Source of the DNA: Ostreococcus lucimarinus
Lineage: Eukaryota
DNA: 64,000 nucleotides
Assembly: GCA_000092065.1 (NCBI GenBank)
Contig: CP000594.1
Reading direction: 5' to 3' (one strand)
The position numbers and the translations under genes are program-made. Below the pieces are notes generated by a model that saw nothing but the letters and a program-made list of their open reading frames with translations, was not told the DNA's origin and searched no databases. Shown in pieces: positions 1 to 29,380 of the stretch (the first letter of the stretch is position 1; the number at the start of each line of letters is the position of its first letter).

Positions 1-2
1 AG

Positions 3-239
3 ATGGTGAAGAAGGATTGGGTGAAGAAGGGCGCCGTCATCATCGACGTCGGTACGAACAGCGTGGACGATAAGACCAAAAAGGCTGGCTATCGCTTGGT
101 CGGCGACGTCGACTTTGCCGAGGTTAAGAAGGTGGCGAGCGCCATCACGCCCGTGCCGGGCGGCGTCGGTCCCATGACCATCGCGATGCTTCTCTCCAAC
201 TGCCTGGATTCTGGCAAGCGAGCCATCGCCAAGGCGTAA
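3..239 (+). CDS. C-terminal fragment of a bifunctional methylenetetrahydrofolate dehydrogenase/cyclohydrolase (FolD/MTHFD-like); the 5' part lies outside the window
   Basis: Translation ...AVIIDVGTN...[15 protein letters not shown]... matches the conserved FolD C-terminal NAD(P)-binding/cyclohydrolase segment. Stop TAA at 237-239. Confidence 0.8.
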
Positions 240-377
240 TCTCATCTTTCGCTCGTCCATGGGTCCTCTATTTTTAATACGTATCGTCGTTGAATTCATT
301 CTTCACTCTCGTTCGTCCCCGCGTCCCGAAGTTCAAACGCCGACCAGCTGTCGCCAGTCATCGCCGCGCCCTTCGCC

Positions 378-2756
378 ATGCGGGGCGCGCCCCCGCCCCT
401 GTACCCGTGGCAGGCCGAAGCGATAAACCTCGTCGCCGCGTCGCGTCGCTCGCTGTGCTACACGGCGCCCACGGGCGGCGGTAAAAGTCGCGTCGCCGAT
501 GAGTTGTTACGACTGTCCCTGACAAACTTTCCCGCGGCGAAAGCGCTCGTCGTGCTGCCGTACGTCGCGCTCGTGCGGGAAAAAGTGGCGTCGTTGGAGT
601 CGTTGTTACGCCCGCTCGGGATCAAGGTGAGGGGCTACGCCGGGGTGGAGTGCGAGGGGGCGCCGTTGGGGAGCTCGAGAGAGCGCTGCGCGGTGACGAC
701 GATTGAAAAGGCGTCGTCGTGCGTCAATAGACTGTTCGAAACGGGCGAGATATCGCTGCTCAGCGTCGTGGTGGTGGATGAGCTGCACATGGTCAGCGAA
801 GACGAACGTGGGTGCGCGCTGGAGGGGATGTTGGCGAAGATACGACACGGAGTGAAGTCGGGAAAGGTGTCGAGCGACGGCCCGCAAATCGTGTGCATGA
901 GCGCGACGGTGGGAAAGTCATCGATGGAACGCTTAGCGAGGTGGTTAGACGCGGAGATTTACGTCAGTCATCATCGGCCGGTGGAGTTGAAAGAGTACGT
1001 GGTGTGCGTGGGTGGGGTGTATGCGAAGGAGAATCGAGGTGAGGCGGGCTGGGAGCTGACGCGCGTGGCCGATTCGCCGTCGCGAGTGGAGTTGGAGATC
1101 GTCGCCGAACTGGTTGGTCAAGTGTTCGTCAACGCGCACAGCTCGTTGGTATTTTGCTCGAGCAAGAGTCAGTGTTCAGTTTATGCGACGAAATTGGCGA
1201 GCTTGCTTCCGGTGAATCCGAACACGGCGCACCTGCGAGAAGAGTGCGTGGCGAGACTCTACGAAGCTGCGGAGGGCGAGCCCGACCAAGCGCTAGTAGC
1301 GTGTGTTCGCTCCGGTCTCGCGTGGCATCACGCCGGATTAACGACGGCAGAGAAGAGAGTAATCGAAGAGGGCTTTCGAGCTGGTGCGATTTTAGCGCTC
1401 ACATGCACGACGACTCTTGCTGCGGGCGTCAACTTGCCCGCTCGCCGTTGCGTCATCCTTCGCGGCTTCATCGCCGGTTTACCGACGCCTTCGATGGCTC
1501 AGTACAAACAAATGGCTGGTCGAGCTGGAAGAAAAGGGCAAAGCGATTTCGGTGAATCTTTCCTAGTCACGACGAAACAAGAGGCCGTGGATTGGGCGCG
1601 AAATCTAGTACTCGGCGAGCTACCGGCTTTGGAGTCGCGTCTGTTTCCTCCTGCAATCAAGCGCCATGACATGCCCGTGACGCCAGAACAACGACGGTTT
1701 TATCTCGAATCCATCGCGTGTGGAGTACTCAAGACAAAGGAAGACGCCGGTGAGCTGGCTTGTCGCACGTTTGCTTGGACATCTGGACGCGATAACGCGT
1801 CAATTCTCGCCCGTCAAAGCCGAGCGTTGAAGGAAATTTACGAAAAAGGGCTGGTTGTCGCGCGCTCCGGCGCGCATTGCGCTGAGTGGTGCTCTACTCC
1901 AGAGGGATTCGCGTTCTACAAGTGTACTTTACCGATAGCACACGCTAAGACGCTGCGGAAAGAGTTGTCTTTCGCGCTTACGAATGGATTGAATCTTTCG
2001 ACGAAGACGCACTTGCTATTCTTTTGCGTGTCGAACGAAACCAACGTCTTCGCAGCAAACTTGAATTGGCACGCGTGGAGCGATTGGATGAGTCGATACG
2101 ACAGTATTCATGAACTTGGGGAGAAACATTTGAATGTCACCCGACAGTACGCAGAAAGAGCGCAGCATCGACAAGGGATATCAGACCAAGCCAAGGCGAC
2201 TCGGTCGCGCCATGAGCGTCTCGCTGCGGCGTTGCTGTTGAGCGACGTGTTGGCGAGCGACGACACCACCGTCGACATTGCGCGCAAATGGTCAACGTTA
2301 TCGAACAATCCCGTCAACCGTGGGATGATTCAATCTCTTCAAAACAGCGCGGCGACGACGGCGGGCATGGCGAGCGTGCTGTGCGAACAGTGCGGCTGGC
2401 ACGCGCTCGCAGGTCTTTTGCAAAACGTTAGCGAAGAGTTGCAAGCTGGCGCGCGACGAGAGCTATTACCGCTGATGCGTCTCGAAGGCATGACCGGCGC
2501 AAGAGCACGAGCTCTACATAACGCCGGACTAACGACGCCTGCGAAAATCGCGGCACTTCAGAGCGATAAGTTTGACAAGCTGCAAGATGCTTGCCTGCGT
2601 TCGCTGACGCGATCGAGAAACGGCGGCTTGGATCAAGCCATGCGTACCACGGCGTGGAGAATCGCAAGCGCTCTCGTGCAATCGGCTCGTGAAGCGACAA
2701 TCGAGGAGGCGAAACGGGCGTTGGAAGACGATTCTAACGCTGAATGGTTAAATTAA
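378..2756 (+). CDS. HELQ: HELQ/Hel308-family superfamily-2 DNA helicase
   Basis: Motifs TAPTGGGKS (Walker A), VVVDELHM (DExH), MSAT, HHAGLT..EKRVIEEGF, TLAAGVNLPARR, QMAGRAGR. C-terminal helix-hairpin-helix region (LMRLEGMTGARARALHNAGL). Collinear with human HELQ over the helicase core. Confidence 0.85.
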   Translation: MRGAPPPLYPWQAEAINLVAASRRSLCYTAPTGGGKSRVADELLRLSLTNFPAAKALVVLPYVALVREKVASLESLLRPLGIKVRGYAGVECEGAPLGSSRERCAVTTIEKASSCVNRLFETGEISLLSVVVVDELHMVSEDERGCALEGMLAKIRHGVKSGKVSSDGPQIVCMSATVGKSSMERLARWLDAEIYVSHHRPVELKEYVVCVGGVYAKENRGEAGWELTRVADSPSRVELEIVAELVGQVFVNAHSSLVFCSSKSQCSVYATKLASLLPVNPNTAHLREECVARLYEAAEGEPDQALVACVRSGLAWHHAGLTTAEKRVIEEGFRAGAILALTCTTTLAAGVNLPARRCVILRGFIAGLPTPSMAQYKQMAGRAGRKGQSDFGESFLVTTKQEAVDWARNLVLGELPALESRLFPPAIKRHDMPVTPEQRRFYLESIACGVLKTKEDAGELACRTFAWTSGRDNASILARQSRALKEIYEKGLVVARSGAHCAEWCSTPEGFAFYKCTLPIAHAKTLRKELSFALTNGLNLSTKTHLLFFCVSNETNVFAANLNWHAWSDWMSRYDSIHELGEKHLNVTRQYAERAQHRQGISDQAKATRSRHERLAAALLLSDVLASDDTTVDIARKWSTLSNNPVNRGMIQSLQNSAATTAGMASVLCEQCGWHALAGLLQNVSEELQAGARRELLPLMRLEGMTGARARALHNAGLTTPAKIAALQSDKFDKLQDACLRSLTRSRNGGLDQAMRTTAWRIASALVQSAREATIEEAKRALEDDSNAEWLN

Positions 2757-2814
2757 AACCAGGCTAGTAGGCATAGGTAGAATTAGACGTAGAGAATAAT
2801 AGGCAGCGGCGCGA

Positions 2815-3768
2815 TTACTGAAACGGCAAAGAGATGCCGAGCCCCTCGTTACCCGGAGCACGGTACTTCTTCTTGTTCGGAGTCGTCAATCTAAAGCTCT
2901 TGATCGTCTCGTCGAACCCACGGGCGAGCTCGTCCCAGTAAATCTCGGGGGCGCTCGAACTCAGCGTGTACAAGTACCCATCCCGCTCAACCGTCACGCC
3001 GTAACTGTGTCGAAACGTCGTCGCCTCCGGCTCGCGCAAATTCGGTGAGCCTTGCGATATGTACTCGTAGTAATAATACGGCACATCATCGATGACGTTG
3101 ATGATCGCGTTATCCACCTCGGCCAGACTCACGCGCTGTCCGCTCGCCACCCGTCCCGTGGCTTTATCCGCCAGAACCGCGTTCGCCACCTGCTTCGCCG
3201 TCCACTCCTTCACGGCTTTCGATTCAAGCGCTGGGGGCGTGTTGCTCACCGTCACCACCGTCGTCAACGGTCCTTTAAAACTCAACAACTCGTACACGAT
3301 GCGTTGCCGAGCGTTCGGCGACATCGGCTCCGCGCTCGAGTACGTATCCCGCTCTCGGCTCACCGCCCAACTGATCGGCTTCCCGCTCTCCGCTTCCACC
3401 GCGTACGTGAACTCATACGCCAAACTCTCGCTCACCACGCGCTTCTTCTCGAGTTCGCGAACCTTCGACGCCGTCGGCGGCGCCGCCGCTTCGATCGCCG
3501 CCGCGCCGTCGATCGCCGCGTCGTCCTCCTCCCCGCGCGCGCCCGGCGCCGAAACGACGCTCGCGACGCTCGCGAGCGAGAGCACGTGCACGAACGCCCG
3601 GCGCGAGGGCGCGTTCGCGCGCGCGGTGTCGTCGCGCGCGTCGTCCCCGACGACGGCTCGACAGGATAGGCCGACGCTCTGGCGCCGCGCGACGGCGCGC
3701 GCGGGACGCCTGCGAGCGTCCAAGGACGCGAAAACGCGCGCGAGCGATGCGCGAGACATCGCAAGCAT
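2815..3768 (-). CDS. PsbP-like (PsbP/Mog1 fold) domain protein with an Arg/Ala-rich N-terminal organelle presequence
   Basis: C-terminal half (YYYYEYI...FRHSYGVTVERDGYLYTLSSSAPEIYWDELARGFDETIKSFRL) fits the PsbP-family signature (..yYE...rH.l..v.dGklY.l...a.E.rW......l..v..SF.l). N-terminus MLAMSRASLARVFASL... resembles a transit peptide. Confidence 0.55.
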   Translation of the reverse strand: MLAMSRASLARVFASLDARRRPARAVARRQSVGLSCRAVVGDDARDDTARANAPSRRAFVHVLSLASVASVVSAPGARGEEDDAAIDGAAAIEAAAPPTASKVRELEKKRVVSESLAYEFTYAVEAESGKPISWAVSRERDTYSSAEPMSPNARQRIVYELLSFKGPLTTVVTVSNTPPALESKAVKEWTAKQVANAVLADKATGRVASGQRVSLAEVDNAIINVIDDVPYYYYEYISQGSPNLREPEATTFRHSYGVTVERDGYLYTLSSSAPEIYWDELARGFDETIKSFRLTTPNKKKYRAPGNEGLGISLPFQ

Positions 3769-3872
3769 GTGTGCGGGCGAGGCGGGGGGCGTCGGGAAGT
3801 GCGGCGGTTTCGCGGCGGCGACGGCGCGGCGACGAATTCGCGCTGTGCTTTCGCGCTGCTAATCATAACGTT

Positions 3873-6077
3873 CTAGTTAACTAAGTCGACGTCCACGATC
3901 ACGGGGATGTGGTCTGATGGAAATTGCGCGTTTGGTAACGCGGTGTGCGCGAGGACGGCGGACATGTCGGGGAGCGGCGATGTGGCGCGCGACGCGAAAT
4001 CGCTCGTCGAACACCACACGTAGTCCAACGCGCCGACGAATCCGCCGACGTAATTCGTCCATTCGAGGAATCCACCGGCAGAGAACAGTGGTCGCGCGGT
4101 TCGCAAGTGTGCGCCACAGCCGATCGGGACCGCGCTGGCGTCGGGGACGACGGATGAAGCGAGCGCGGCTTGCTTCGCCGAGACGGCGGCGAAGCCGTCA
4201 TCCTGCGCTCGCTTAATATCACTAAACGCGCGACGAGCAATCACGTGGTCGTCGGCATCCATCGTTAACCCAGGCGCGAGTCCACTCTCGCGTCGAAGTG
4301 TGAATGCAGCGACGGCGTGACAGTTTTTCAACGTGCATCCGCATTTGACGTGCTTCTTCACGGCTGCGATTGCGTTTGCGTCGTCGCTCGATTTTTCGTC
4401 GCATTTACACGACGCGCCCCACTCTTTATCCAGCGTACGAGCGCAAAGAGACATGAAAATACCTCGTTCTGCGAGCGCTCGTAACTCAAAGGTATTGGTG
4501 ACTTCATCAAAGTTGCGATTGAATGTCTCGTATCCTGTACCATCGTCACAAATATAGAAGAGATCTCGAGCGGCGTCTCGCGATGACGTCCCGCCCCACC
4601 GAAATAGACTACCACGAACCCAATCCTCGTCACTCGCGGAAATCTCGCCTTTGGTGAGATATCTGATGACGCCATCTTCAGGCTCACCGTTAAAATCGCC
4701 GCACAATACGAGTGGATCGCCGGCGGCGAACGCCGTTGCCCGAGTCGTAAATTCGTGAGCTTGCAAGACTCGTAAGTGCATCGCCCCTGGGTGAAAAAAT
4801 AAGTGAGTGTTACCGACGCACAACGACTTGCCGCTCGCGCGTACTTTCACGCGCGCGAGCTGCGCAATGGACGTGATCTTTTTGAGAGCCATAGCCAACT
4901 CTGCGTTATCGTCATCCGCGATCCAGCGCCGCAAAGCTTTGTCTCCGATTTCCGTGAGTTTGATCGCTTCTTCGCGCTCGATGCTTTCAAACTTGCTCAA
5001 TGCGAAGAACATCGCGCATCCTTCCAACGTCTGACCGCTCTTACCGACCCAATCTGTCGCGATATATCCGTTTGCAGTGAGTACGGGCACGAACAACGTT
5101 TCGTGGTACTTCTTGTCCACTTCTTGTAGCGCCACGACGTCGGCTTTTGATCGTAAGATATCTTCCAATACTAGCTGCAAGCGTCGTTCCACTTTAGCCA
5201 ACGCCGTGTCAAAGTAAGGAAACATCGTTCCCCAAGTGTGCGCGTACGCATCGGCCAACACGTTGTACGTCATGATACGATAATCCGCCGACGTCTCGGC
5301 GCTCGGCTCCAACCGTCGCAACGCCTCCGACCGATCAACGCCCAGCCGCGTCACAACGTTCGTAAACTCAAACCTCTCGTCCAAAGCCTCAACCGCTAAT
5401 CTTTTACCGAAATCCTCTTTTGTGGGCGTGTACACGCGCCCTTGGCCGACGATCTCGCCGTCCGCGTACCATCGCCAGTCGACTTCGTCGTGCTGGCAAA
5501 ATTCCAATCCGTGCGCGGTCGCTGGAAGCGGATATCCCACCATGGCGTAGTCCACGCTCGAGCACCCCGCCATCTCCGGCGCATCTAATCGTACGAGATA
5601 CGATATCCGCGTCTCGCAGTCATCGATCGTGAGGACGCTTCCCTCGGACCACGCTTCGGCGTGCGTAGCGCTCCCAGCCACCGGCGCCCCGTCGCGCTCG
5701 AGCGTCACCGTCGTGGTTCCAGAAGCCGTCTTTCCCCGCGCCAGCGTTTTCAATAAGCGCTGAAAACTCTTTTCTATCGGTTCCGCCGCGTCGCGATGCA
5801 GCGTCTTCGATGTGCCGTCGCGCATCGGCACTTTTATCGTCACGCGCTGCTTTTCGACAAATCTTTTGACGTCGACGTAAAGTTCGTCGCAGGGCGCGTC
5901 GGACATCGCGGACGAAGGCTTCGAACGCGCCGCGACGCGCGTTTGACGATGGCGCGAATCGGGGCGAGGGAGACGGGCGGTGACGAGGGATGCGCCTCGC
6001 GGCATTGACGAGCGCGCGAGTGCGGCGGCGGCTGGACTGGAGCGCCGTCTATTCATAATAAAAATAATCTCTATCAC
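3873..6077 (-). CDS. Endonuclease/exonuclease/phosphatase-family deadenylase, CCR4/nocturnin/2',5'-phosphodiesterase-12-like. The true start is probably internal, e.g. the ATG at 5906.
   Basis: The catalytic motifs typical of this enzyme family are all present: YRIMTYNVLA, VVALQEVD, LCVGNTHLFFHP, LVLCGDFNGEP, FPSDHIPV. The long N-terminal extension resembles an organelle presequence. The ORF's 5' end abuts the NRAMP stop only 10 nt away, so the annotated start is an over-extension. Confidence 0.7.
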   Translation of the reverse strand: MIEIIFIMNRRRSSPAAAALARSSMPRGASLVTARLPRPDSRHRQTRVAARSKPSSAMSDAPCDELYVDVKRFVEKQRVTIKVPMRDGTSKTLHRDAAEPIEKSFQRLLKTLARGKTASGTTTVTLERDGAPVAGSATHAEAWSEGSVLTIDDCETRISYLVRLDAPEMAGCSSVDYAMVGYPLPATAHGLEFCQHDEVDWRWYADGEIVGQGRVYTPTKEDFGKRLAVEALDERFEFTNVVTRLGVDRSEALRRLEPSAETSADYRIMTYNVLADAYAHTWGTMFPYFDTALAKVERRLQLVLEDILRSKADVVALQEVDKKYHETLFVPVLTANGYIATDWVGKSGQTLEGCAMFFALSKFESIEREEAIKLTEIGDKALRRWIADDDNAELAMALKKITSIAQLARVKVRASGKSLCVGNTHLFFHPGAMHLRVLQAHEFTTRATAFAAGDPLVLCGDFNGEPEDGVIRYLTKGEISASDEDWVRGSLFRWGGTSSRDAARDLFYICDDGTGYETFNRNFDEVTNTFELRALAERGIFMSLCARTLDKEWGASCKCDEKSSDDANAIAAVKKHVKCGCTLKNCHAVAAFTLRRESGLAPGLTMDADDHVIARRAFSDIKRAQDDGFAAVSAKQAALASSVVPDASAVPIGCGAHLRTARPLFSAGGFLEWTNYVGGFVGALDYVWCSTSDFASRATSPLPDMSAVLAHTALPNAQFPSDHIPVIVDVDLVN

Positions 6078-6086
6078 GTTTGCCCG

Positions 6087-7796
6087 TCAGAGCGAGTACA
6101 CCGCGGCGGTGGCGGGATCCGGTAATAAGTCATCGTTGTTCCACATCGCGTCGTCGAGCTCTTCGTCGGATAAGTTGGCGTCGCCGGGACGCTTCATGCG
6201 AACCGACGTGCGCGCGCTCAGATTTTGATGCACGGGTCGCAAGGTGAGGTAGAGGAGGGTCGCGATGTATACGCCGAGCATGCTGAAGATGATGAGACCT
6301 AAGAACACACCCGCGAAAGAGCCCCACACGAGCTTAGACTCGACGATGGCCGTGGAGATCAAAATCACGTTGGCGCCGATGATTCCGCCGGAGAGCCAGA
6401 TGGTGTAACGCAACCGCTTCGCCGACACCGCCATGGGACCCATGATTCGCTCGCTCGCGGTGAACTTGATGAGGGGAATCAGCGCATACGGGAGCTGTAT
6501 CGCTAAAATTGTTGATGATATCACGATCAAGGACTCGGAGTACTTATCGCCAGCGGCCAAAACGACGATTAAAGACGGCACGATGGCGCACATGCGCGTC
6601 ACAAACGCTCGAAGCACCGGGTTGACACGAAGCTCCAAGAACCCATCCATGACGAACTGACCGGCATACGTTCCAGTAATAGTGGAACTTTGCCCCGACG
6701 CGAGCAGCGCGGCGGCGAAGAAACCTTTCGCCGCCGTGCCGAGCACCTCCTTCAACATTTGCGGCGCGTACTGCAACGGACGCTCGCGCACCTGGCGCAT
6801 TTCCTCCGGATCGGTCAAGTGCGCGTAATTCGACGCCGCGACGATGACGACGGCGAAGTTGATGAACAACGACACCGAGAGCGCCATCCCAGACTCGACG
6901 ATATTGTACTTCTACGCCATCCTCAGACTCTTTTCGCCTAAACTAAACCCGCGGCTCAACACCAGAGCGCTGTGCAAGAATAAATTATGCGGCATCACCA
7001 CGGCGCCGACGAGAGATACGGCGATATACAGCGCCTTGCTTCCCGGCAATCGAGGCAACACAATCCCCGCCACCACAGAGGACGCTTTCGCGTCCACAAA
7101 CGTGACTTCAGCCAAGAAACACAACGACATCACGCCGACGAGCGCCGCCATGAACGCCTCCAACTTTCGCACCCCGAACGACTGCAACCCCAAAAACACC
7201 ATCGTCGACATCGACGTCAGCACCACTCCCACCCACGTGGGAATTCCAAATATCAATTTCAGCGCCAACGCCGTGCCGATGACCTCCGGAACATCGCTCG
7301 CGATGATCGCCAGTTCCGTCATCGCCCACAGCGCGTACCGCGTCGGGTCCGGATACTCCTCCCGCATGCACCGCGCCAGGTCCCACCCCGTCGCCAGCGC
7401 CAGCCGTATCGTCAGACCTTGTATGTACCACCCCCCCAGCGTCGCCCAGAGCAACACCCAGAGCAATTTATACCCGAACAGCGTTCCCGCCTGCAAGTCG
7501 CTCTCAAAGTTCCCCGGATCCACGTACGCGATGCACATCAAAAATCCCGGTCCCATGAACCGCCACAGCGTCTTCAGGTTGAACCGATGATCGTCGTCGT
7601 CCAGGCCCTCGATCTCGACCCCCGCCGCGGCGCGCCGCGCCCCGTCCTCGCCTTTCGCGCGCGCGCCGTCGCCGCGCGCGTGCCATCGCGTCCCCGTCCC
7701 CGCCGTCGTCGTCCCGCCGTCGTCGTCGCCCTCGTGCGACCGCGCGGCGCGCGCGGCGCCGTCGAGCACCGGCGCGTCGTCGCGGTCGTCCTCCAT
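6087..7796 (-). CDS. NRAMP-family divalent metal (Mn2+/Fe2+) transporter. The reading frame is broken by an in-frame TAG at 6912-6914.
   Basis: DPGN motif (FLMCIAYVDPGNFESDLQAG), MPHNLFLHSALV, and the conserved ...KYNIVESGMALSVSLFINF segment. ORFs 6912..7796 and 6087..6887 are in the same frame. They are separated only by a TAG sitting where homologs have Asn (human ...REANKYFFIESCIALFVSF). Confidence 0.8.
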
Positions 7797-8462
7797 CGCG
7801 CGCGCGCGTCGGCGCGCCGTCGCGGTGTCGCGCCGCGGTGTCGCGCCCGCGGTCTCGTCCCGAGCCTACAACACGGACGACTCGCACACCTCGACGCGCG
7901 CGACGCCGCCGCGCGACGCCGCACACGCGCGCGCGCCGCGCGCGGACCTCGCGCGCGACGTTCCTCGCGCGCGCGGCGTCCCGAAGCGCGCGCGCGATCG
8001 CGCGACGCGACGCGACGGCGACCGAACGCGATCGGTTCGCGCTTTGAATCGTCGCGACGACGACGATGTCGACGTCGCCGACGCGACGATCCTCGCGACG
8101 AGGCGCGCCGACGCCCGACGGCGAGACGATGGACGATGGAGGCGGAATCGCGCGCGACGCGCGCGCGGCGGCGTCGCGGGCGAACGTGAAGGTGCGATTC
8201 GATTTCGGAAACCTTTTGAGAATTTGAATTTCGGACGGCGACCGACGCCGAGCGGAGGCGCGCGCGGATCGAGGATCGAGCGAGGCGCGCGATCGGCGCG
8301 CGGCGGAGACGGCGGTGGACGACGGGCGCGAAAGCGCGGGCGCGATGGGGCGGCGCGCGGGAGGGATCGGACGGGCGGGGAAGACTGACGGCGACGCGCG
8401 CTCGAAATCGACAGGTCGAGACGGAGGAGGGGAAGGAGGACGCGCTGGGACGAGGACGGCGG

Positions 8463-10736
8463 GTGCGAACGGCGAAGCTCGAGACGGGGGACGATGGAAG
8501 GAACGGGAGCTCGACGCGCGCGGGGTCGTCGACGCCGAAACGGGGGAGTTCGGTGGAGAACGAGCCGGCGTCGAAGAGCGACGGGACGACGACGGTTTCG
8601 GCGTTGAGCGTGCTCGGCGTGCAGGCGCCGCGAGTCGTGGGTAAGCGAACGCCCAGGAAGCCGTCGAGCGCGTACGTTAACTTTGAAAATGCGGCGGAGG
8701 TTCTAGTTTCGCTGTCGCCGCAGATCAACCGCGAAGCGGTTCGCGCGGCGCAGCAAAATAGCCCGAGTAGGAGCTACGCGACGAAGAGTCAAATCGCGGA
8801 CTTGGCGTTGGGTAACGTGACGACGCCCAGACGAAAGCGCGCGCGGGCGTTGTTCCCGGATGAAGTGTTCACGACGAGCACGGCGAACGGTTCATCGCCC
8901 GCTAGAAGGAAGAAGCCGATGTCGGCGGCGGATGAAGACACGCTCTACGGCGCTCTAGACGGATTGATGACGCTCGCAGAGAACGTCGCGGCTCCATCGC
9001 CGCAACAGACGGATAGCATGAAGAAGAAACGTAAGCAAGGTAGTGGACGACCGCGCGGCTCGTACGGGTCACCTTCACGCCACCTGCCGCCGTTACCGAA
9101 GTATGCGCTCAAGCCGACGCCGATGCCGGTCGGGAAGAAGATGTTGAAGATAAACAGGCCTCGGCGCCACGTTTCGCGCGAGATCGAATCTGTTGGTCTC
9201 GGCGCGGCGTCCTCACTCTTTCACGATCATCGTCTGAGCGAAACGGCTGAGGCGACGACGACGACGCAAGGAGACAACCGGGCGCGTTTGCTCATCGGTG
9301 CGCACGATCCGTTGACGAGACGCTGGGCAAACGCCAACTTCTTCACCGCTGGTACGGACAAGGGCTGGTTTGAAGACAGTGGCTTCTCACGATGGTTGCA
9401 GCACATTGGTAAAGGCGATATGCGCGTCGCTACGCGCGAAGAATGGCAAAAAGTCCGTCGAAAATTACCAAAGACGAGACGCCTTTCGCTCAAATTTTTG
9501 AAGGACGAGCGTGTGGACTTGGAGTATTTCCGACACGCCGCGCGCGAGATGACAAACTTGAAATTGCACGGTACGGTTCTAACGGATGAGCTTAAGGCCT
9601 TAATGCTCAAGTGGACGGGTGGCGTTCCGGTCCCGTCGCCGCTCGAAGTCGGGCAAACGGTGTTGGCGGTGCATCCCCGATTCCATTCGCCGTACATAGG
9701 AAACATATTGATTGTCGAGCGCGCCACCTGTCGCGTACAATTTGCACGTCCAGAACTCGGTGTCGAGCTCGTCCGAGACATCGATATCATGCCAGTAGAC
9801 GCCAACCAAGAAGAGATGGATCTGATTGCTGCGGGGACCGCGGAACAAATCGAAAACGAAGCCTTCAACGCTGGTTTCCGAGGAATTTACGATCCGCTGC
9901 CGGTGGTCGGTGGCGGTGGCCACGCCTACGGCGCCGGCGTCGCAGTTGCCGCACAAATGCGTGAGATGGACGTCCGTTTGCTCAACGAAGCTCAACAAGC
10001 TCTCGAGCGCAAGCGCGAGCTCGTCGATGCGTTGCGGATGAAGAATGACGCCGCGGAGGAGTTCAAAAAGAAACCAGAACGCGTCAAGCAAGCGGCGGAG
10101 ACGAACGGCGAAGCGCTTAAATTCCAACGAGAATACGCCGCCATCGTTCTCGCCTTGCGCGGCGCCAACGCGGAGTTGGAGGGTGCTTTAGTTCGCTTGC
10201 GGCAGCAACAGGGATATCACGACAAACCCCTCGGGTTGTGGCGGAAAATCAAGAGTCAGAATTTGGGCGACGGTCATCGCGCTCTCTCTCGATTCGCCCC
10301 ACCATCCGCGACGCCGAGCTCGGACGAACTCTACGCTTCGACGGCGGAAGACATCGTCGCCACCGCCGGCATGGGCGCTCGTCGCATCGTTTACCACGTG
10401 CAAACCACCACCAACGCCGGCGCCGAGAGCACGGCGACGCTCAATCCGAGTCTCCAGGAACCTCTCGGAACCGGCGCCACTAAGTCCGATCTCCCTCCCA
10501 CCGCCGCCGACGTCGACGCCGAAAAGCTCAAAGTCACCCAGCTCGTCACCGCCATCGTCCAGGCCGCGCTCACCATCAAAGCCTGCGCCGACCGCGGCGC
10601 CAGCGCGAGCGTCCTCGACGCCTGCCTCCGCCGCGTTTCCGATTCCCTTCGCCCCGTCGCCGTGAGCAATCGCGCCGCTTTCGACGCCGTCGAGCGCGCT
10701 CTCAAAGACCTTCGCGACGTCTTTCTCATCCGTTGA
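8463..10736 (+). CDS. LIN9: LIN9/ALY (always-early) homolog, a MuvB/DREAM-complex subunit. The 5' end is uncertain because the ORF has an alternative-codon start.
   Basis: DIRP-like segment (REEWQKVRRKLPKTRRLSLKFLKDERVDLEYFRHAAREM), a Tudor-like block (VGQTVLAVHPRFHSPYIGNILIVERATCRVQFARPELGVELVRDIDIMPV) and a C-terminal helix (FQREYAAIVLALRGANAELEGALVRLRQQQ). These are collinear with human LIN9 (EEWRHIRRLMGKPRR..., YRVTFDRTGLGTH..., FQRRYATIVLELEQLNKDL). Confidence 0.75.
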   Translation: MRTAKLETGDDGRNGSSTRAGSSTPKRGSSVENEPASKSDGTTTVSALSVLGVQAPRVVGKRTPRKPSSAYVNFENAAEVLVSLSPQINREAVRAAQQNSPSRSYATKSQIADLALGNVTTPRRKRARALFPDEVFTTSTANGSSPARRKKPMSAADEDTLYGALDGLMTLAENVAAPSPQQTDSMKKKRKQGSGRPRGSYGSPSRHLPPLPKYALKPTPMPVGKKMLKINRPRRHVSREIESVGLGAASSLFHDHRLSETAEATTTTQGDNRARLLIGAHDPLTRRWANANFFTAGTDKGWFEDSGFSRWLQHIGKGDMRVATREEWQKVRRKLPKTRRLSLKFLKDERVDLEYFRHAAREMTNLKLHGTVLTDELKALMLKWTGGVPVPSPLEVGQTVLAVHPRFHSPYIGNILIVERATCRVQFARPELGVELVRDIDIMPVDANQEEMDLIAAGTAEQIENEAFNAGFRGIYDPLPVVGGGGHAYGAGVAVAAQMREMDVRLLNEAQQALERKRELVDALRMKNDAAEEFKKKPERVKQAAETNGEALKFQREYAAIVLALRGANAELEGALVRLRQQQGYHDKPLGLWRKIKSQNLGDGHRALSRFAPPSATPSSDELYASTAEDIVATAGMGARRIVYHVQTTTNAGAESTATLNPSLQEPLGTGATKSDLPPTAADVDAEKLKVTQLVTAIVQAALTIKACADRGASASVLDACLRRVSDSLRPVAVSNRAAFDAVERALKDLRDVFLIR

Positions 10737-10854
10737 CGCTTTTAACCACCACCCGCATCCCTGCGTCCCAATCCGCGCGCGCACCGTCAAAACGCGCCGC
10801 GCGCGCCGTCGCCGCGTCCGAGTCCCGCGAGAGCTAAAAGCGCGCGACGCCATC

Positions 10855-12033
10855 ATGCGCGCGAGCGTCGCTTCCGGCGCCGTCGCCGCCGCCGCGCGTC
10901 GCGCGTCGTTCCGGAATTCCGTCGACAATTCAGTGGCGTCCCTGCGACGACCGAAGCGCGTCGCGACGAGCGCGCGTCGACGCCGATCGTCGACACCGCG
11001 CGCGCACCACGGACCGATGACCAATCTGCAGTTCACGCCGGACAGCGCGCTCGCGGGAGGGCTGATTTTGGGGTCGATGGTGGTGGCGAAGCGATTGAAT
11101 TCGGGACGCAATTTGGGCGTGAGCGGGGACACCAAGGCGTTCGCGCGAGGCGAGGGTCGAGCGACGAGCGCGGCGTTTTTGATCGGACTGCTCGCGGCGG
11201 GATACGCGGCACCGATGATTCTGGGCGCGCAGGCGGCGGTGCCGATGGTGGACGCGACGCGAGCCATCGCGGCGGGCGCGCTCGTCGGAGCGGGGAGCTC
11301 GCTCGGAGGCGGGTGCACGAGCGGACACGGAATCTCTGGGATCGGACGATTGGACGTGCGAAGCGTGGCGTTCACGTGCGTGTTCATGGTCGTCGGTGCG
11401 ATCACGGTCGCGGCGACGGGAACGATGGATGAGTTACACGTGTCGCAAGCGACGAAGACGATCGACATGCTCGCGCGCTCGCCCGAGGCGAAAACGATTT
11501 TGTACGCCAAAATTTTCGCCGCCGGTGCGGCTGTCCAAGGCGTGCTCTACGCGCTCGCTAAGCGTGAGGGCGGAGGAATCACGGACGTCGTGAAGAAGCT
11601 CGAGCTCGTGAGCGAGTCCGTCGCCGGACTGTTTTTCGGTCTCGGTCTCGTCGTGAGCGGGATGACGAATCCGGCGAAAGTCGCCGGTTTTCTCGCAGTC
11701 ACCACTCAAGCTTTCGATCCGTCCTTGATGTTCGTCATGGGCGGCGCGCTCGCCCTCGTGGTTGTTTCTATGTTCCTCGCGAAGAATGCCTTGGGCGTCT
11801 CTCGTCCGGCCATGGCGCGAGAGTTCTCGACTACTCCGAAGTACGTCGACAAGTCTGTTTTGATCGGAGGCGCGCTCTTCGGCGCTGGCTGGGGCTTGGG
11901 CGGCGTTTGCCCCGGCCCGGGCCTCGTCAATCTCGTTCTGAACTCCGGTCGCGAGATCACGCTCTGGTGCGTCGCGTACTTTGCCGCGCAAGCCGTCCAA
12001 CAAAAGCTCTCCTCCCAGTACTCTCTCGAATAA
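10855..12033 (+). CDS. YeeE/YedE-family (sulfur/thiosulfate transport-like) membrane protein with an N-terminal presequence
   Basis: Two internal repeats, each with the family's GxxCxxG motif (GGGCTSGHGISG and GGVCPGPG), flanked by hydrophobic helices. Arg/Ser-rich N-terminus. Confidence 0.7.
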   Translation: MRASVASGAVAAAARRASFRNSVDNSVASLRRPKRVATSARRRRSSTPRAHHGPMTNLQFTPDSALAGGLILGSMVVAKRLNSGRNLGVSGDTKAFARGEGRATSAAFLIGLLAAGYAAPMILGAQAAVPMVDATRAIAAGALVGAGSSLGGGCTSGHGISGIGRLDVRSVAFTCVFMVVGAITVAATGTMDELHVSQATKTIDMLARSPEAKTILYAKIFAAGAAVQGVLYALAKREGGGITDVVKKLELVSESVAGLFFGLGLVVSGMTNPAKVAGFLAVTTQAFDPSLMFVMGGALALVVVSMFLAKNALGVSRPAMAREFSTTPKYVDKSVLIGGALFGAGWGLGGVCPGPGLVNLVLNSGREITLWCVAYFAAQAVQQKLSSQYSLE

Positions 12034-12111
12034 CCGCCGTCCCGCGGCTGCAATACCAAACTTCACAACGTACCCTCACACCCCCGCGCGCGCGGCGCCG
12101 TGCGATCAGCG

Positions 12112-12540
12112 ATGCTCTCGACGCGCGCGCGAGCGGCGCCGCCCTCCTTCGCGCGCGTCTCGAGCCGCTCGCGTCGCGCTCGCGTCCCCGCGGCGTCGCC
12201 GCGCGCCGTCGAGTTCGGCGCGCGGGACATCGCTTCCCTTCCTCGCGTCGCCGCGTCGTTCGCATCCGCCGGAAAACTAAAGTCGCCGGCGCCCCAGCGC
12301 GCGTCTCGCGACGTCAAAGCCCGCGGCGTGCCCGTTCTCTCGTCGCTTCCGCTCGTCGGCTGGGCGTTTTCGTCCCCAGTCGTGCTCGTGGTCTACGTTT
12401 TCGTCGCGATTAGGATGTATCTCGGCTACGACAGGACCACGTTCGGAAGCGGCGTGCCCAAGATCGCCATGTGCGGCCTGTGGCCCGTCTTGGCCGCGCT
12501 ATCGGCGTCGTTTCGCGAGAATTTAAAGCGCTCTTTGTAA
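12112..12540 (+). CDS. Hypothetical small membrane protein (~140 aa) with an organelle-type presequence and one transmembrane helix
   Basis: ATG at 12112. Arg/Ala/Ser-rich N-terminus followed by a hydrophobic stretch (LVGWAFSSPVVLVVYVFVAI). Codon composition is not the Arg-rich low-complexity seen in spurious GC ORFs. No family recognised. Confidence 0.3.
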   Translation: MLSTRARAAPPSFARVSSRSRRARVPAASPRAVEFGARDIASLPRVAASFASAGKLKSPAPQRASRDVKARGVPVLSSLPLVGWAFSSPVVLVVYVFVAIRMYLGYDRTTFGSGVPKIAMCGLWPVLAALSASFRENLKRSL

Positions 12541-12857
12541 GACTTGAGGATTTGAATGCGCCCGGGACAGGCGTCAGAACGCGACGCGACGTCGCGTCGT
12601 CGCGCGCGCGTCGTCGGACCCGCGCGCGCGCTCGAAGGCGGAAAAGACTCGCGCGCGCGATCGCGCGCGCTCGAACTCGCGCGAATCGCGACGCGCGCGT
12701 CGATAGGCGCGCGTGAACGTCGACGCGCGGTGACAGTTGCGTCGAGTAAATCGCCGCGCGGCGGCGCATGCGCCCTGGCCGATCGTCGCTCAGCGGACAG
12801 AGTTTGAACGAAGAACACCGCGCGCGCGCTCACGCGCGAGGGAGGACGTCGCTCGGG

Positions 12858-14261
12858 ATGTCGGCGTCGAACAAGCGCGCGTTCGTGTTCACGTGCCTGG
12901 GCCTCGGGTTGGTGTTCGCCGATCAAAATTTGTTAGCGCCGAATTTGACCGCCATCGCGAACGATTTGAATCTGTCGCCGAATGAGCGGGACTATAAATT
13001 AGGCGGGCAGATCGCGTTCGCGTTCTTCTTGCTCGGCGCGCCGGCGGCGGTGTTGATCGGGTCGATGGCGGATTACTATCCGCGCACGAAGCTCTTCGCG
13101 TGGACGATGCTGTTGGGATCGTGCCCCAACGTCCTGGCGTGGATGCCGGGGGTGACGACTTTTGGTCAGTTGTATTGGTTGCGCGCGCTGACGGGAATCG
13201 CGGTAGGCGGCGCGGCGCCGTTGACGTACTCCTTAATGTCAGACTTATTTCCGCCGAGCGAGCGGACGAAGATGAGCGCGGTGACGGGGCTATCGATGAC
13301 GCTCGGGATCGTCTGCGGGCAAGCGATCGCGGGATTTTTGGGGGAGTCGTACGGCTGGCGCTTGCCGTTCGCGGTGGTGGCGATTCCGGCGATATGCGTG
13401 GCCATGGTGCTGATGTTCTTTGTCGAGGAGCCCGAGCGCGGGGCGATGGAGGCGCCGCCGGACGAGGAGGCAAGTCTCGAGCAAGAGTCGCTCGTCATCC
13501 AATCGTCCTCACGACCCTCGACACCGCCGATACCACCGCGAGGGCTGCACTTCAGCGCGACCGCGGCGAAGATGTATGCGCGAAAGTTGCACGGCATCGT
13601 CTCCGTGCGCACCGTGGCGTTGTTCTTGGCGCAAGGCGTGTCGGGTTGCGTGCCGTGGAGTATGATCAACACGTTCTTCAACGATTACTTAGCGCAAGAT
13701 AAGGGGTTAGGTGTGAAGCAGAGCACGTCGATGCTGATTTTATTCGCCGTCGGCGGCATGTTAGGGACGATTTGGGCCGGGTGGTACGGCCAAATTCTTT
13801 TCAACAACAAACCGGAGAACGTATCGATTTTCATGGGATCGAGCGCAATCGTGGGGGTGTTCCCGGTGGCTTACTTGGTGTTGGCGAATTACGACAACTC
13901 CGCGTCCGACATCGCGATCAAGTCGATCTTATCCTTTATTTCGGGAGGCATCGCTTCGTGCGTCGGCGTGAACATTCGAGCGCTGTTGCTCAACGTCCTG
14001 CATCCCATGAATCGCGGCACCGCGTTTTCCCTCTTCATGCTCACCGACGATTTAGGCAAAGGATTCGGACCTCTCGTCGTCGCCGGCTTCGTCGCCGCGT
14101 TCGGTCGCGAGACGGCCTTTTTCATCTCGGTTTTGTTCTGGATTCCTTGCGGGTGTCTTCTCGCCGCCTCGTGCTACACGCTGAAACGAGATTTACAAAC
14201 CGCCGCTGCGCGTTACCAAACAGAACGCGCCGAAGAAAATCGTTCGGTTCGATTGGATTAG
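12858..14261 (+). CDS. Major-facilitator-superfamily transporter, Spinster (SPNS)-like
   Basis: 12 predicted helices, a GxxxDRxGRK-like loop (GSMADYYPRTK) and the Spinster-like N-terminal region (LLAPNLTAIANDLNLS). The ORF begins at 12768; the first ATG in a sensible context is 12858. Confidence 0.7.
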   Translation: MSASNKRAFVFTCLGLGLVFADQNLLAPNLTAIANDLNLSPNERDYKLGGQIAFAFFLLGAPAAVLIGSMADYYPRTKLFAWTMLLGSCPNVLAWMPGVTTFGQLYWLRALTGIAVGGAAPLTYSLMSDLFPPSERTKMSAVTGLSMTLGIVCGQAIAGFLGESYGWRLPFAVVAIPAICVAMVLMFFVEEPERGAMEAPPDEEASLEQESLVIQSSSRPSTPPIPPRGLHFSATAAKMYARKLHGIVSVRTVALFLAQGVSGCVPWSMINTFFNDYLAQDKGLGVKQSTSMLILFAVGGMLGTIWAGWYGQILFNNKPENVSIFMGSSAIVGVFPVAYLVLANYDNSASDIAIKSILSFISGGIASCVGVNIRALLLNVLHPMNRGTAFSLFMLTDDLGKGFGPLVVAGFVAAFGRETAFFISVLFWIPCGCLLAASCYTLKRDLQTAAARYQTERAEENRSVRLD

Positions 14262-14337
14262 CCCTTCTTCGCGCCCGCTGTAGATTATCCCTCATTTCAA
14301 TCCGACGCGCTCGCGTCACTAATCCCCTCGCCGCGCC

Positions 14338-15228
14338 ATGGCGCCCTTCAACCTGAAAACGATCAGCGTCACCCGCGCCCACCACGGCACCTTACATCGG
14401 CTCCAACACGACTCCGAAACCTTGAGCTCGGTCGCGACTTTCGCCGTGTTCGTTCCCGGCGCGGTCGAAGACTTCAAAGACAAATTCCCCCTCTTGTTGT
14501 ACCTCTCCGGATTGACGTGCACGGACGAAAATGTGGCGCAGAAAGGGTGCGCGTTCGAGCACTGCCACGCGCGGCGCGTGGCCATGGTCATGCCGGACAC
14601 GTCACCGCGAGGAGACGACGCGGCGGACGACGAGGCGTGGGATTTAGGGAAGGGGGCTGGATTTTATGTAGACGCGTCGGCGGCGCCGTGGTCTCGACAC
14701 TACAAAACGTACTCGTACGTCACGAAAGAGCTGCCGAAAGTGCTGCGGGCGTGCGATTTTGCCGATGCGTTGGATCACGAGCGAGTGTCGATCTCGGGGC
14801 ACTCGATGGGGGGACACGGGGCGTTGACGTTGGCGCTGAGAAATCCAAACGCGTACGCGAGCGCGAGCGCGTTCGCTCCGATTGCTAATCCGACGGCGTC
14901 GGATTGCCCGTGGGGACAAAAGGCGCTCAAGGCCTACCTTGGGAGCGCGGATTGCGATGAGGCGAAATCGCACGACGCGACGGAGCTCGTGAAGAGCGTC
15001 GAGGCGGGCACGTTTAAGATGCCGATTTTAATTGATCAAGGCGCGGCGGACTCCTTTTATAAGACGCAGTTGCACCCTGAGCGTTTCGTGGACGCGGCGA
15101 AAGAGCGTGGATGTGATGTCACGTATCGTCTGCACGATGGTTACGATCATAGCTACTTTTTTGTTTCCACGTTCATGCGCGAGCACATCGAGTTCCACGC
15201 CGCGGCGCTGGGAAGTCTTAAAATTTAA
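14338..15228 (+). CDS. S-formylglutathione hydrolase (esterase D)
   Basis: Near-collinear with human ESD: LYLSGLTCTDEN, MPDTSPRG, GAGFYVDA, GHSMGGHGAL (GxSxG), FAPI.NP..CPWGQKA, HDGYDHSYFF. Confidence 0.9.
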   Translation: MAPFNLKTISVTRAHHGTLHRLQHDSETLSSVATFAVFVPGAVEDFKDKFPLLLYLSGLTCTDENVAQKGCAFEHCHARRVAMVMPDTSPRGDDAADDEAWDLGKGAGFYVDASAAPWSRHYKTYSYVTKELPKVLRACDFADALDHERVSISGHSMGGHGALTLALRNPNAYASASAFAPIANPTASDCPWGQKALKAYLGSADCDEAKSHDATELVKSVEAGTFKMPILIDQGAADSFYKTQLHPERFVDAAKERGCDVTYRLHDGYDHSYFFVSTFMREHIEFHAAALGSLKI

Positions 15229-15282
15229 TGACATTGATAATCGGTTGTGAAAGTAATTATACGGTTGAGAAGGACCGCTTGA

Positions 15283-16559
<1,277 letters not shown>

Positions 16560-16678
16560 TCAGTGGCGACGCGCGAACGCGAAGGGGACGTTTTTCGCGA
16601 CGACGATTCGACGACGACGGCGCGGGAAACGACGAGGCGTCGCGACGGACGGCGCGCGGAGTTACAAGCGAGCGTCCG

Positions 16679-16906
16679 CTACGGCTTGGCGCTCGCGAGG
16701 GGGGCGACGTACTGCGTGGACTGCTGAAACGCCTCGATCTCGCGGTGAATCGCGTCGACGGCGTCGGGCTGGACGAGGACGCGACGCGCGTCGAGGTCGA
16801 CGACGACGAACTTGCGCTCCGCGGGCGCGACGTCGTTGAGGTGGAGGATGTACTGCTTGATGGGGACGTCGGCGGTGATCATGACGCCGTGGACGGCGGA
16901 GACCAT
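16679..16906 (-). CDS. GTF2H5: General transcription factor IIH subunit 5 (p8/TTDA/Tfb5)
   Basis: MVSAVHGVMITADVPIKQYILHLNDVAPAERKFVVVDLDARRVLVQPDAV aligns with human GTF2H5 [45 protein letters not shown]. Length ~75 aa as expected. Confidence 0.75.
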   Translation of the reverse strand: MVSAVHGVMITADVPIKQYILHLNDVAPAERKFVVVDLDARRVLVQPDAVDAIHREIEAFQQSTQYVAPLASAKP

Positions 16907-17020
16907 GGCGCGCGCCAGGCGCGGTCTGCGGGTCGCGGCGACGACGCGCGCGGCGAAGGGAGAAATGGGCTAAAACGAGGGCTAAAACGAAGACCGATGG
17001 CGAGGTCGGTGATGGCTAAA

Positions 17021-18064
17021 TCATGGCGCGCCGTAGAGCCGCGCCCACGGTGGACGCGGGGCGTGGACGTCGACGCGGAGGTTGGATTTGGGGTGGCGAA
17101 ACGCGACGCGCTCGGCGTGGAGCAACGCGCCGGCGACGCGACGCGCGGAGAAAGGCGCGTCGATCGGTCCGTCGCGAGTCGCGGCGATCGGTCCGCCGTA
17201 TCTCACGTCGCCGACGAGCGGAAGTCCGAGCGACGCGCAGTGAAGTCTGATCTGGTGCGTGCGACCGGTGAGCGGGGAGCAACGCGCCAACGCGACGCGG
17301 TGTCGTCGGCGGTCGGCGTCGTCGGCGGTCGGCGGTTCGCAAAATCGCAGCGCCACGCCGTCGGTGATCACGCGCTCGACGATGATCGTGGTTTCGGCGT
17401 GCTTGACCTTGACCTTTTTGTTCCCGGGAAGCGCGCGGCCGATGTCCGCGGCGTCGTAGAGACGGAAGAGGCCGTATTTCGCGCGGCCCCAACCCGTGAA
17501 TACTCTGCGATGATCTTCAACGCCGTCGTAATCCGCCGTCGCCGCGCACAGCGCGACGTACGTCTTCTGCACCGTGCCGTCGGCGAATTGCGCCGACAAG
17601 CTGCGAATGGCGTCTCGATTTCGCGCGACGACGAGACATCCGGAGGTGTCGCGGTCGAGTCTGTGAACGACGCGCGCCGACTCCGAGGCGTTGAACGGCA
17701 CGTCCCGCGTCGTCGCGCGGTTATCGACCGTGGTCGCATCATCGCATTTCACCATGCCTCGCTCGACGAGGCGTTCTATATCGTGCACGTACGTCTGCGC
17801 AGGCTTGTTCAGGACGTAGACGTCGTCGTCGACGTACACCGCGAGCAACGGGACGCCGGCGGCTGCGTCCGCTCTCGCCGCGCGTTCGCACGACTCCGCG
17901 CGCTCGCCCTCGATCGCGCGCGCTGCATCACTCGGCGGCCCAGGACGGAGCGTCGGTTTGGGATATTCGGTCGACATCTCGCCGCGAGGCGATAAATGAT
18001 GAGACGCAGGGCGAAACCTCGAGCGTCCAGCGTCGCAAACTTTTGCGACGCGAATGACGCTCAC
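17021..18064 (-). CDS. RluA-family pseudouridine synthase; the probable true start is the ATG at 17977
   Basis: Catalytic motif HRLDRDTSGCLVVARN plus the conserved downstream KTYVALC block. The ORF's 5' GTG start is an over-extension. Confidence 0.8.
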   Translation of the reverse strand: MSVIRVAKVCDAGRSRFRPASHHLSPRGEMSTEYPKPTLRPGPPSDAARAIEGERAESCERAARADAAAGVPLLAVYVDDDVYVLNKPAQTYVHDIERLVERGMVKCDDATTVDNRATTRDVPFNASESARVVHRLDRDTSGCLVVARNRDAIRSLSAQFADGTVQKTYVALCAATADYDGVEDHRRVFTGWGRAKYGLFRLYDAADIGRALPGNKKVKVKHAETTIIVERVITDGVALRFCEPPTADDADRRRHRVALARCSPLTGRTHQIRLHCASLGLPLVGDVRYGGPIAATRDGPIDAPFSARRVAGALLHAERVAFRHPKSNLRVDVHAPRPPWARLYGAP

Positions 18065-18074
18065 CCCATTTTAC

Positions 18075-19052: not shown

Positions 19053-19110
19053 CGTTTTAAAGATGATTTCAGGAGAAACAGGATGATAAAGTGATATTAC
19101 AGCGCGCGCG

Positions 19111-20821: not shown

Positions 20822-20892
20822 CGCGTCAAAACGCAGCGCGACGAGCGACCTCGTCGCACGCGCGCGCGCACGCCGCGTCGGAAGCGACTCGA

Positions 20893-21129
20893 ATGGCGTG
20901 GACGAACTTCATCATCACCGCCACGGGCCTGATCGCCGTCGCGTCGCTGATGCGCACGGACGTGCGACAATCGTCACGAATGTTGAGACAGAATTTAAAA
21001 ACCATTCGACGCTGGGTCGAGGACGGCGCCGAGGCGACGGCGAAGACGAGCGAAAAAACCCTCGGGGACACCGCGGTCGGGAAAGCGATGAAAGAGATGC
21101 GCGACGAGGCGATGAAGAAGAAGGATTGA
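20893..21129 (+). CDS. Candidate small (78 aa) N-terminally anchored membrane protein; hypothetical
   Basis: ATG at 20893. MAWTNFIITATGLIAVASLM (one TM) followed by a charged tail ending KEMRDEAMKKKD. Noticeably AT-richer, protein-like codon usage compared with surrounding Arg-rich spurious ORFs. Lies in the ABC1/EXS intergenic region. Confidence 0.35.
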   Translation: MAWTNFIITATGLIAVASLMRTDVRQSSRMLRQNLKTIRRWVEDGAEATAKTSEKTLGDTAVGKAMKEMRDEAMKKKD

Positions 21130-21283
21130 GGACGAGGTTGAAAGGCTTTTTGAGATTGGCGCAGACGCGGCGAGGTCGACGTCGAACGAGGGAGAGGTTT
21201 GCGTCGATCGATACGCTAGGCGGAAGTGCGGTCGAACTGCGTTCGGTTGGAGGGCGACGCGCGGAGGGGCGATCGAGGACGAG

Positions 21284-22498: not shown

Positions 22499-22567
22499 AT
22501 AGCATTCTAGTACCGATATAGGTTATTATCACAACATCACGACTCTCTATCGATCCGTAAACACCCG

Positions 22568-27720: not shown

Positions 27721-27721
27721 T

Positions 27722-29280: not shown

Positions 29281-29380
29281 ATCGGCTAGGGAAAAATAAT
29301 GTTGGTTTGCTGCTCGTGTTGTAACGACAAACTACGAAGAGAAAAACGTTTTTATGAGCGCTGGATTCGGGAGTCGATAG

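What the first reader, a model, noticed from the sequence alone, without database searches (positions are those of the whole stretch)
6888..6914. In-frame TAG inside an otherwise intact NRAMP transporter gene
The two NRAMP ORFs (6912..7796 and 6087..6887) are in the same frame and are separated only by TAG at 6912-6914 plus eight sense codons (KYNIVESG). Alignment to NRAMP2 puts the TAG exactly at a conserved Asn (human ..REANKYFFIES; here ..RMA*KYNIVES). This is not a homopolymer site, so it is a different kind of event from the indel-like breaks. It could be a base-call error, a strain-specific nonsense allele or recent pseudogene, or a stop that is read through or edited.
Basis: seen in the sequence. 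Interest (0 to 1): 0.5.

Follow-up and report, generated by a model that had tools for sequence, protein, structure and literature searches.

The report
Lone stop codon, likely sequence error
The stop codon that splits this algal metal-transporter gene is a single base found only in this copy of the sequence; every independent copy, including one of the same strain, reads tyrosine, so it is almost certainly a sequence error and not biology.

Summary
A minus-strand NRAMP gene (7796..6087, 570 codons) has one in-frame TAG, codon 295, at 6914..6912.

The TAG is private to this sequence record. Eleven independent contigs of the same species, and one from a related species, read TAC (Tyr) there. 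Four of them match the window's NRAMP coding sequence at every other base.

Three contigs from sequencing run SRR23274481 carry the window's own genotype. They share 28 alleles with the window that no other contig has. Against them the window has exactly 10 differences in about 30 kb, all derived on the window's side:
- four substitutions, all G to C on the + strand, one of which makes the TAG;
- six one-base insertions, four of which break three other conserved genes (ADH_zinc_N, an ABC1 kinase, a ULK4-like kinase).

The VPS13 gene carries at least three more window-only insertions.

Real mutation at this density is not credible, so the TAG belongs with the window's indel-like breaks as a defect of this record. 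TAG is an ordinary terminator here, ending at least seven neighbouring genes. Nothing supports read-through, editing or an old pseudogene.

The organism is Ostreococcus lucimarinus CCE9901 or an indistinguishable strain. A real culture-specific nonsense allele remains possible at about 9%. Interest is low.

The parts
6087..7796 (-). NRAMP (SLC11-type divalent metal transporter) coding sequence, 569 codons plus stop. It is intact apart from codon 295.
   Evidence: It is identical to contigs L012-L015 at every base except 6912.
6912..6914 (-). In-frame TAG (codon 295). The same-genotype contig L016 and 10 other conspecific contigs read TAC (Tyr).
6912..6912 (.). The single window-only base: C on the + strand here, G everywhere else.
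   Evidence: all 11 conspecific contigs read G. L004, from a related species, also reads G.
6912..7796 (-). N-terminal ORF, 294 aa. It carries the DPGN and MPH metal-site motifs; by my reading it covers TM1-TM6.
6087..6887 (-). C-terminal ORF, 266 aa, from the first ATG after the TAG (about TM7 onward).
3533..3533 (.). Context: window-only C versus G (PsbP G79 instead of A79).
15917..15917 (.). Context: window-only extra A. It breaks the ADH_zinc_N gene, which is 313 aa in wild contigs.
16916..16916 (.). Context: window-only C versus G, intergenic.
20004..20004 (.). Context: window-only extra T. It splits the ABC1 kinase gene, which is 524 aa in wild contigs.
25288..25328 (.). Context: two window-only extra bases (T at 25288, G at 25328). 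They split the ULK4-like kinase-HEAT gene, which is 1270 aa in wild contigs.
26920..26920 (.). Context: window-only C versus G (Asp to His in the ULK4-like kinase).
28202..28330 (.). Context: two window-only extra bases (T at 28202, G at 28330).
49973..53560 (.). Context: window-only extra bases at 49973, 52385 and 53560. They break the VPS13-like gene, which is one ORF of about 4435-4511 codons in 8-9 wild contigs.

Best explanation
The TAG is a single wrong base in this sequence record (+ strand C at 6912 where the organism has G), not a property of the organism. The true codon is TAC (Tyr295), and the gene encodes an ordinary full-length 569-aa NRAMP divalent-metal transporter. The error belongs to a set of record-specific defects scattered through the window: G-to-C miscalls and one-base insertions. 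Shown: the base is private to this record, a same-genotype contig contradicts it, and it co-occurs with other private gene-breaking defects. Inferred: the cause is sequencing, assembly or later handling of the record, not mutation.
For: (1) Site 6912 is G in 11 conspecific contigs from different samples and sources (JGI, ENA, Logan), and in L004 from a related species. About a dozen further protein haplotypes in the 160-member cluster all have Y295.
(2) The window's NRAMP haplotype with Tyr295 exists as protein P0135. Its four contigs, L012-L015, match the window's coding sequence at every base except 6912.
(3) Run SRR23274481 carries the window's genotype. L016, L010 and L031 cover about 30.3 kb and share 28 alleles with the window that every other contig lacks. 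The window has 10 private differences against them, and they have none. L016 reads TAC and has the NRAMP as one ORF.
(4) The 10 private differences have an unnatural spectrum: four substitutions, all G to C on the + strand, and six indels, all one-base insertions. Four of the insertions break three conserved genes that are intact in 6 to 16 wild contigs. At least three more insertions break VPS13.
(5) Density: 10 differences in 30.3 kb. Measured laboratory evolution in the sister species O. tauri was 8 substitutions and 2 deletions per roughly 13 Mb in about 6000 generations. That paper corrected 2126 single-nucleotide and 3342 indel errors in an older reference, which is the same order of density as seen here (PMC4378021).
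Against: No reads of the sequenced DNA were available, so the base was not checked at its source. I could not retrieve the public 708,927-bp O. lucimarinus record to see whether it carries the TAG. From my own knowledge, that genome was published as finished, which makes an error every 3 kb or so surprising. The defects may instead have arisen in whatever produced this copy. SRR23274481 is undocumented in the searchable literature. It could be a sister clone and not the same culture.
Confidence: 0.88

Rival explanations
1. A real, very recent nonsense allele in the sequenced clone or culture line. A C-to-G change at Tyr295 truncates NRAMP after about TM6, giving a null or NMD-targeted allele. 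It would be tolerated, or even favoured, in metal-replete culture medium.
For: The TAG is truly in the window. The rest of the gene shows no decay, which fits a very young lesion as well as an error. Laboratory Ostreococcus lines do fix such mutations: a G-to-C nonsense change and a frameshift in two membrane-protein genes were confirmed by Sanger sequencing in O. tauri (PMC4378021).
Against: The same-genotype contig L016 reads TAC. The TAG is one of 10 window-only differences in 30 kb, with none on the other side. At the measured laboratory rate, about 0.03 real changes would be expected in 30 kb. No environmental contig carries TAG.
Confidence: 0.09
2. The TAG is decoded: programmed read-through, suppression, or RNA editing back to a sense codon, so a full-length transporter is still made.
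For: Only that the downstream reading frame is intact.
Against: The stop is not conserved in any conspecific or orthologue; all have a sense codon. The context TAG-AAG-TAC is not a known leaky context, by my own knowledge of the TMV-type TAG-CAR-YYA motif. TAG terminates at least seven neighbouring genes whose ends agree with gene calls on wild contigs.
Confidence: 0.01
3. An old pseudogene, a TAG lying in an unrecognised intron, or two genuinely separate genes.
For: None beyond the existence of two ORFs.
Against: The coding sequence matches four wild contigs at every other base. Wild contigs have one continuous 569-codon ORF, so there is no intron. The two halves cover consecutive parts of one Pfam profile.
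Confidence: 0.01

Closest known systems
Reference-genome base and indel errors later corrected by resequencing, as documented for Ostreococcus tauri (Blanc-Mathieu et al. 2014, PMC4378021)
   Same: Same genus. Same kinds of lesion: single-nucleotide differences and one-base indels that break or distort gene models. Similar density: 2126 single-nucleotide and 3342 indel corrections in about 12.5 Mb, against 4 and 6 in 30.3 kb here.
   Different: Different species and record. Here the errors are inferred from independent contigs, not from reads of the same DNA. The spectrum is oddly one-sided: only G to C, only insertions.
Laboratory-acquired nonsense or frameshift mutations in cultured Ostreococcus (Ot06g00160 and Ot12g00990 in O. 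tauri, PMC4378021)
   Same: A G-to-C nonsense change in a membrane-protein gene of a long-cultured picoalga. A downstream Met could start a shorter product.
   Different: Those were validated by Sanger sequencing of old and new DNA, and they occur at about 10 per genome. Here a same-genotype contig contradicts the change, and nine other private lesions surround it within 30 kb.
NRAMP / SLC11 divalent-metal transporters (human NRAMP2 9f6n, plant NRAT1 8ont, bacterial MntH)
   Same: Pfam PF01566 over the full length, DPGN and MPH metal-site motifs, and E-values of 2e-103 to 4e-47 against solved NRAMP structures.
   Different: Nothing unusual once codon 295 is read as Tyr. That position is variable across the family: Asn, Cys, Tyr or Leu.

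Membership tests
NRAMP / SLC11 transporter | Match to Pfam PF01566 above the gathering score | tested here: met
   230.5 and 137.2 bits against a cut-off of 29.8, on profile positions 1-190 and 209-356.
NRAMP / SLC11 transporter | Metal-site motifs DPGN (TM1) and MPH (TM6) | tested here: met
   YVDPGNFESD and AVVMPHNLFLHS appear in the translation. The motif definitions are from my own knowledge of the family.
NRAMP / SLC11 transporter | Uninterrupted reading frame covering both halves of the fold | tested here: not met
   Not met in the window, which has TAG at codon 295. Met in every other contig of the species.
Programmed stop-codon read-through or recoding | The stop codon is conserved at that position in relatives | tested here: not met
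   All 11 conspecific contigs read TAC. Orthologues have Tyr or Leu.
Programmed stop-codon read-through or recoding | A known leaky context or stimulatory element 3' of the stop | tested here: not met
   The context is TAG AAG TAC AAT, which is not the CAR-YYA type. Downstream RNA structure was not examined.
Stop-codon reassignment (TAG as a sense codon) | TAG is not used as a terminator, and in-frame TAGs are common in conserved genes | tested here: not met
   TAG ends the Exo_endo_phos, MFS, GST, ABC1, SNase-Tudor, 1133-aa and 239-aa genes. Long ORFs of up to 1846 codons contain no TAG.
Unitary pseudogene | Further disabling changes or relaxed constraint beyond the first lesion | tested here: not met
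   The coding sequence matches L012-L015 at every base except 6912.
Sequence or assembly error | The variant is private to the record and contradicted by independent sequence of the same genotype | tested here: met
   L016 shares the window's strain-specific alleles and reads TAC. There are 28 shared alleles, 10 window-only differences and 0 SRR-only differences.
Sequence or assembly error | Reads of the sequenced DNA disagree with the consensus base | not testable with these tools
   There is no access to reads. Runs SRR847306, SRR847307, SRR847308 and SRR23274481 are named as the test.

The most novel reading that the evidence does not exclude
The TAG is a genuine, very recent knockout of the NRAMP metal transporter in the sequenced O. 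lucimarinus culture line, which would be an example of gene loss under metal-replete laboratory conditions. It would merely sit among unrelated sequence errors.
Probability: 0.08. Interest if true: 0.25.

Novelty: not a real feature. Interest (0 to 1): 0.04.

Why it matters
This matters mainly for quality control. Taken at face value, the record would lead an annotator to call the NRAMP gene of this model picoalga a pseudogene, or to split it into two genes. That would wrongly suggest that Mn/Fe uptake by this route has been lost. The same comparison shows that at least 13 positions in this 64-kb window are private defects that break or alter six genes. Any claim of gene loss, frameshifting or recoding drawn from this record should first be checked against reads or environmental contigs.

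Tried and rejected
(1) P0129, a 266-aa metagenome protein starting at the same ATG as the downstream ORF, looked like a possible wild TAG allele. Its contig L002 starts only 14 nt upstream of the ATG, so it does not reach the codon and is uninformative.

(2) I first suspected that the window was the old O. tauri reference, because the error density matches PMC4378021, or a PacBio O. mediterraneus assembly. Both were rejected. The window's esterase equals XP_001421239.1 and XP_001421235.1 matches at 100%, both from O. lucimarinus CCE9901. O. mediterraneus has 56% GC.

(3) An exact look-up of the window's PsbP protein found nothing. This was later explained by the window-only G79.

(4) I tried to fetch the NCBI 708,927-bp record through the esterase protein. 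It was not among the indexed places.

(5) A literature search for SRR23274481 found nothing.

(6) The literature on Ostreococcus NRAMP only notes that the gene is present. There is no report of a nonsense allele.

(7) The single metagenome DNA scan with TA[N] found only three contigs, all TAC. The protein-based look-ups were far more productive.

Full report
**Observation.** The minus strand of 7796..6087 is a single 570-codon frame with one internal stop. That stop is TAG at 6914..6912 (codon 295). Eight sense codons (KYNIVESG) follow, then the ATG that opens the 266-aa downstream ORF. Both halves hit Pfam Nramp PF01566 on consecutive parts of the profile, positions 1-190 and 209-356. The translation carries the DPGN and MPH motifs. 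With Tyr at codon 295, the protein matches solved NRAMP structures at E-values of 2e-103 to 4e-47. The description and coordinates in the finding are correct.

**Which residue the TAG replaces.** But this position varies across the family. Plant NRAT1 has Cys, and Micromonas-like orthologues have Leu. All Ostreococcus-like orthologues but one have Tyr. The nearest protein, P0001 (99% identical), and about a dozen other members of its 160-member cluster all read RMAYKYNIVES. At the DNA level, contig L001 has TAC. The TAG is therefore one C-to-G change on the coding strand, which is G to C on the + strand at 6912.

**Population evidence.**
- A pattern scan of metagenome contigs that left the third codon base free found three contigs, all TAC.
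- The window's own protein haplotype with Tyr295 exists as P0135 in JGI, Logan and ENA data.
- Its four contigs, L012-L015, match the window's NRAMP coding sequence at every base except 6912.
- In total, 11 conspecific contigs, plus L004 from a related species (92.7% identical), read G at 6912. None reads C.
- The three other differences between the window and L001 fall in a naturally polymorphic C-terminal transmembrane stretch and are shared with other haplotypes.

**Same-genotype evidence.** Three contigs from Logan run SRR23274481 are nearly identical to the window:

| Contig | Window span | Differences from the window |
|---|---|---|
| L016 | 1..7828 | 2 mismatches |
| L010 | 8074..25779 | 1 mismatch, 4 gaps |
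| L031 | 25750..30587 | 1 mismatch, 2 gaps |

. I then took the 28,812 positions covered by these contigs and by at least three other contigs.
- At 28 positions the window and the SRR contigs share an allele that every other contig lacks. They are the same genotype.
- Ten differences are private to the window.
- None is private to the SRR contigs.

L016 has TAC at codon 295, and the NRAMP is called there as one ORF running to the contig edge.

**The ten private differences.**
- Four are substitutions, at 3533, 6912, 16916 and 26920. In all four the window has C on the + strand and every other contig has G.
- Six are one-base insertions, at 15917, 20004, 25288, 25328, 28202 and 28330.
- The insertions split ADH_zinc_N, the ABC1 kinase (524 aa in the wild) and the ULK4-like kinase-HEAT gene (1270 aa in the wild).
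- Further along, the VPS13-like gene is one ORF of about 4435-4511 codons in 8-9 wild contigs. In the window, extra bases at 49973, 52385 and 53560 break it.

**Why this points to an artefact and not to mutation.**
- The asymmetry is 10 to 0. If changes were equally likely on either lineage, the chance that all ten fall on one named side is about 0.001.
- All four substitutions are the same directed type. Given the first, the chance for the other three is about 6e-4 under uniform types.
- All indels are insertions.
- Several conserved genes would be inactivated within 30 kb. Scaled to a genome of about 13 Mb, that would disable a large share of its genes.
- In the sister species O. tauri, about 6000 generations in culture fixed only 8 substitutions and 2 deletions genome-wide. 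Resequencing there corrected 2126 single-nucleotide and 3342 indel errors in the older reference (PMC4378021).
- The density here is about 1 substitution per 7.6 kb and 1 insertion per 5 kb. That is of the error order, and roughly 400 times the real-mutation order.

The TAG is therefore most simply one more defect of this record. It is not a different kind of event from the indel-like breaks.

**Alternatives.**
- A real nonsense allele cannot be excluded without reads. Ostreococcus cultures do fix such changes. But the same-genotype contig reads TAC, and the prior from the rates above is low.
- Read-through or editing has no support. The stop is absent from every relative, and the context TAG-AAG-TAC is not a known leaky one.
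- TAG is a normal terminator of at least seven neighbouring genes, whose ends agree with gene calls on wild contigs.
- An intron or an old pseudogene is excluded by the continuous 569-codon ORF in wild contigs and by the otherwise identical coding sequence.

**Source organism.** The window's 296-aa esterase is identical to XP_001421239.1, and XP_001421235.1 matches window 1671-2753 at 100%. Both are Ostreococcus lucimarinus CCE9901 proteins on a 708,927-bp record. I could not retrieve that record. So I cannot say whether the defects are in the public sequence or only in this copy. From my own knowledge, that genome was published as finished, which makes such a density surprising. This is the main open point.

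**Consequence if the TAG were real (inference).** By my reading of the motif positions in the sequence, the 294-aa product would keep only TM1-TM6 and so lack the second half of the transporter fold. The 266-aa downstream ORF would need reinitiation after a long ORF. The result would be a null allele.

**Verdict.** The most likely explanation is a base error in the record (0.88). A real strain-specific nonsense allele is at about 0.09, and recoding or other explanations at about 0.02. Interest is low.

Noticed in passing
window 15917, 20004, 25288, 25328, 28202, 28330: Six one-base insertions are private to the window. They are absent from the same-genotype contigs L010 and L031 and from 5-16 other contigs. 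They split the ADH_zinc_N, ABC1 kinase and ULK4-like kinase-HEAT genes, all of which are intact in wild contigs.
   Followed up: yes
window 3533, 6912, 16916, 26920: All four window-only substitutions are C in the window and G elsewhere on the + strand. All window-only indels are insertions and none are deletions. The signature is one-sided and systematic, and its cause is unknown.
   Followed up: partly
window 44468-58739 (+): The VPS13-like gene is one ORF of about 4435-4511 codons in wild contigs but five ORFs in the window. Window-only extra bases lie at 49973, 52385 and 53560. The last junction, at 57189-57211, was not compared with any other contig.
   Followed up: partly
window 46000-58000: A 12-kb block of 47-51% GC sits in a region of about 60% GC, entirely inside the body of the VPS13-like gene. 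The 5' end of the same ORF is about 66% GC. The wild contigs align through this block at over 99% identity, so it is natural. The reason is unknown.
   Followed up: no
window 6280-6360 (NRAMP codons 476-505): The C-terminal transmembrane stretch of NRAMP is a hotspot of natural amino-acid polymorphism among metagenome haplotypes (F/S/V at 481, V/I/M/T at 497, S/G at 505). The rest of the protein is nearly invariant.
   Followed up: partly
P0134 (Logan contig, 539 aa): This cluster member joins an unrelated N-terminus of about 50 aa to this NRAMP sequence. It is probably a chimeric unitig from two Mamiellophyceae species.
   Followed up: no
window 10758, 12558, 43152-43171: Intergenic 12-bp, 3-bp and 20-bp (CGCGA-type repeat) length polymorphisms separate the window from wild contigs. 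These are ordinary population variation, unlike the one-base insertions.
   Followed up: partly
window 14338-15228 (+): The esterase (S-formylglutathione hydrolase) sequence carries two accession pairs, XP_001421239.1 and XP_001421274.1. The look-up lists a 708,927-bp contig as the longest one carrying it. This could be a duplicate gene or a duplicate annotation.
   Followed up: no
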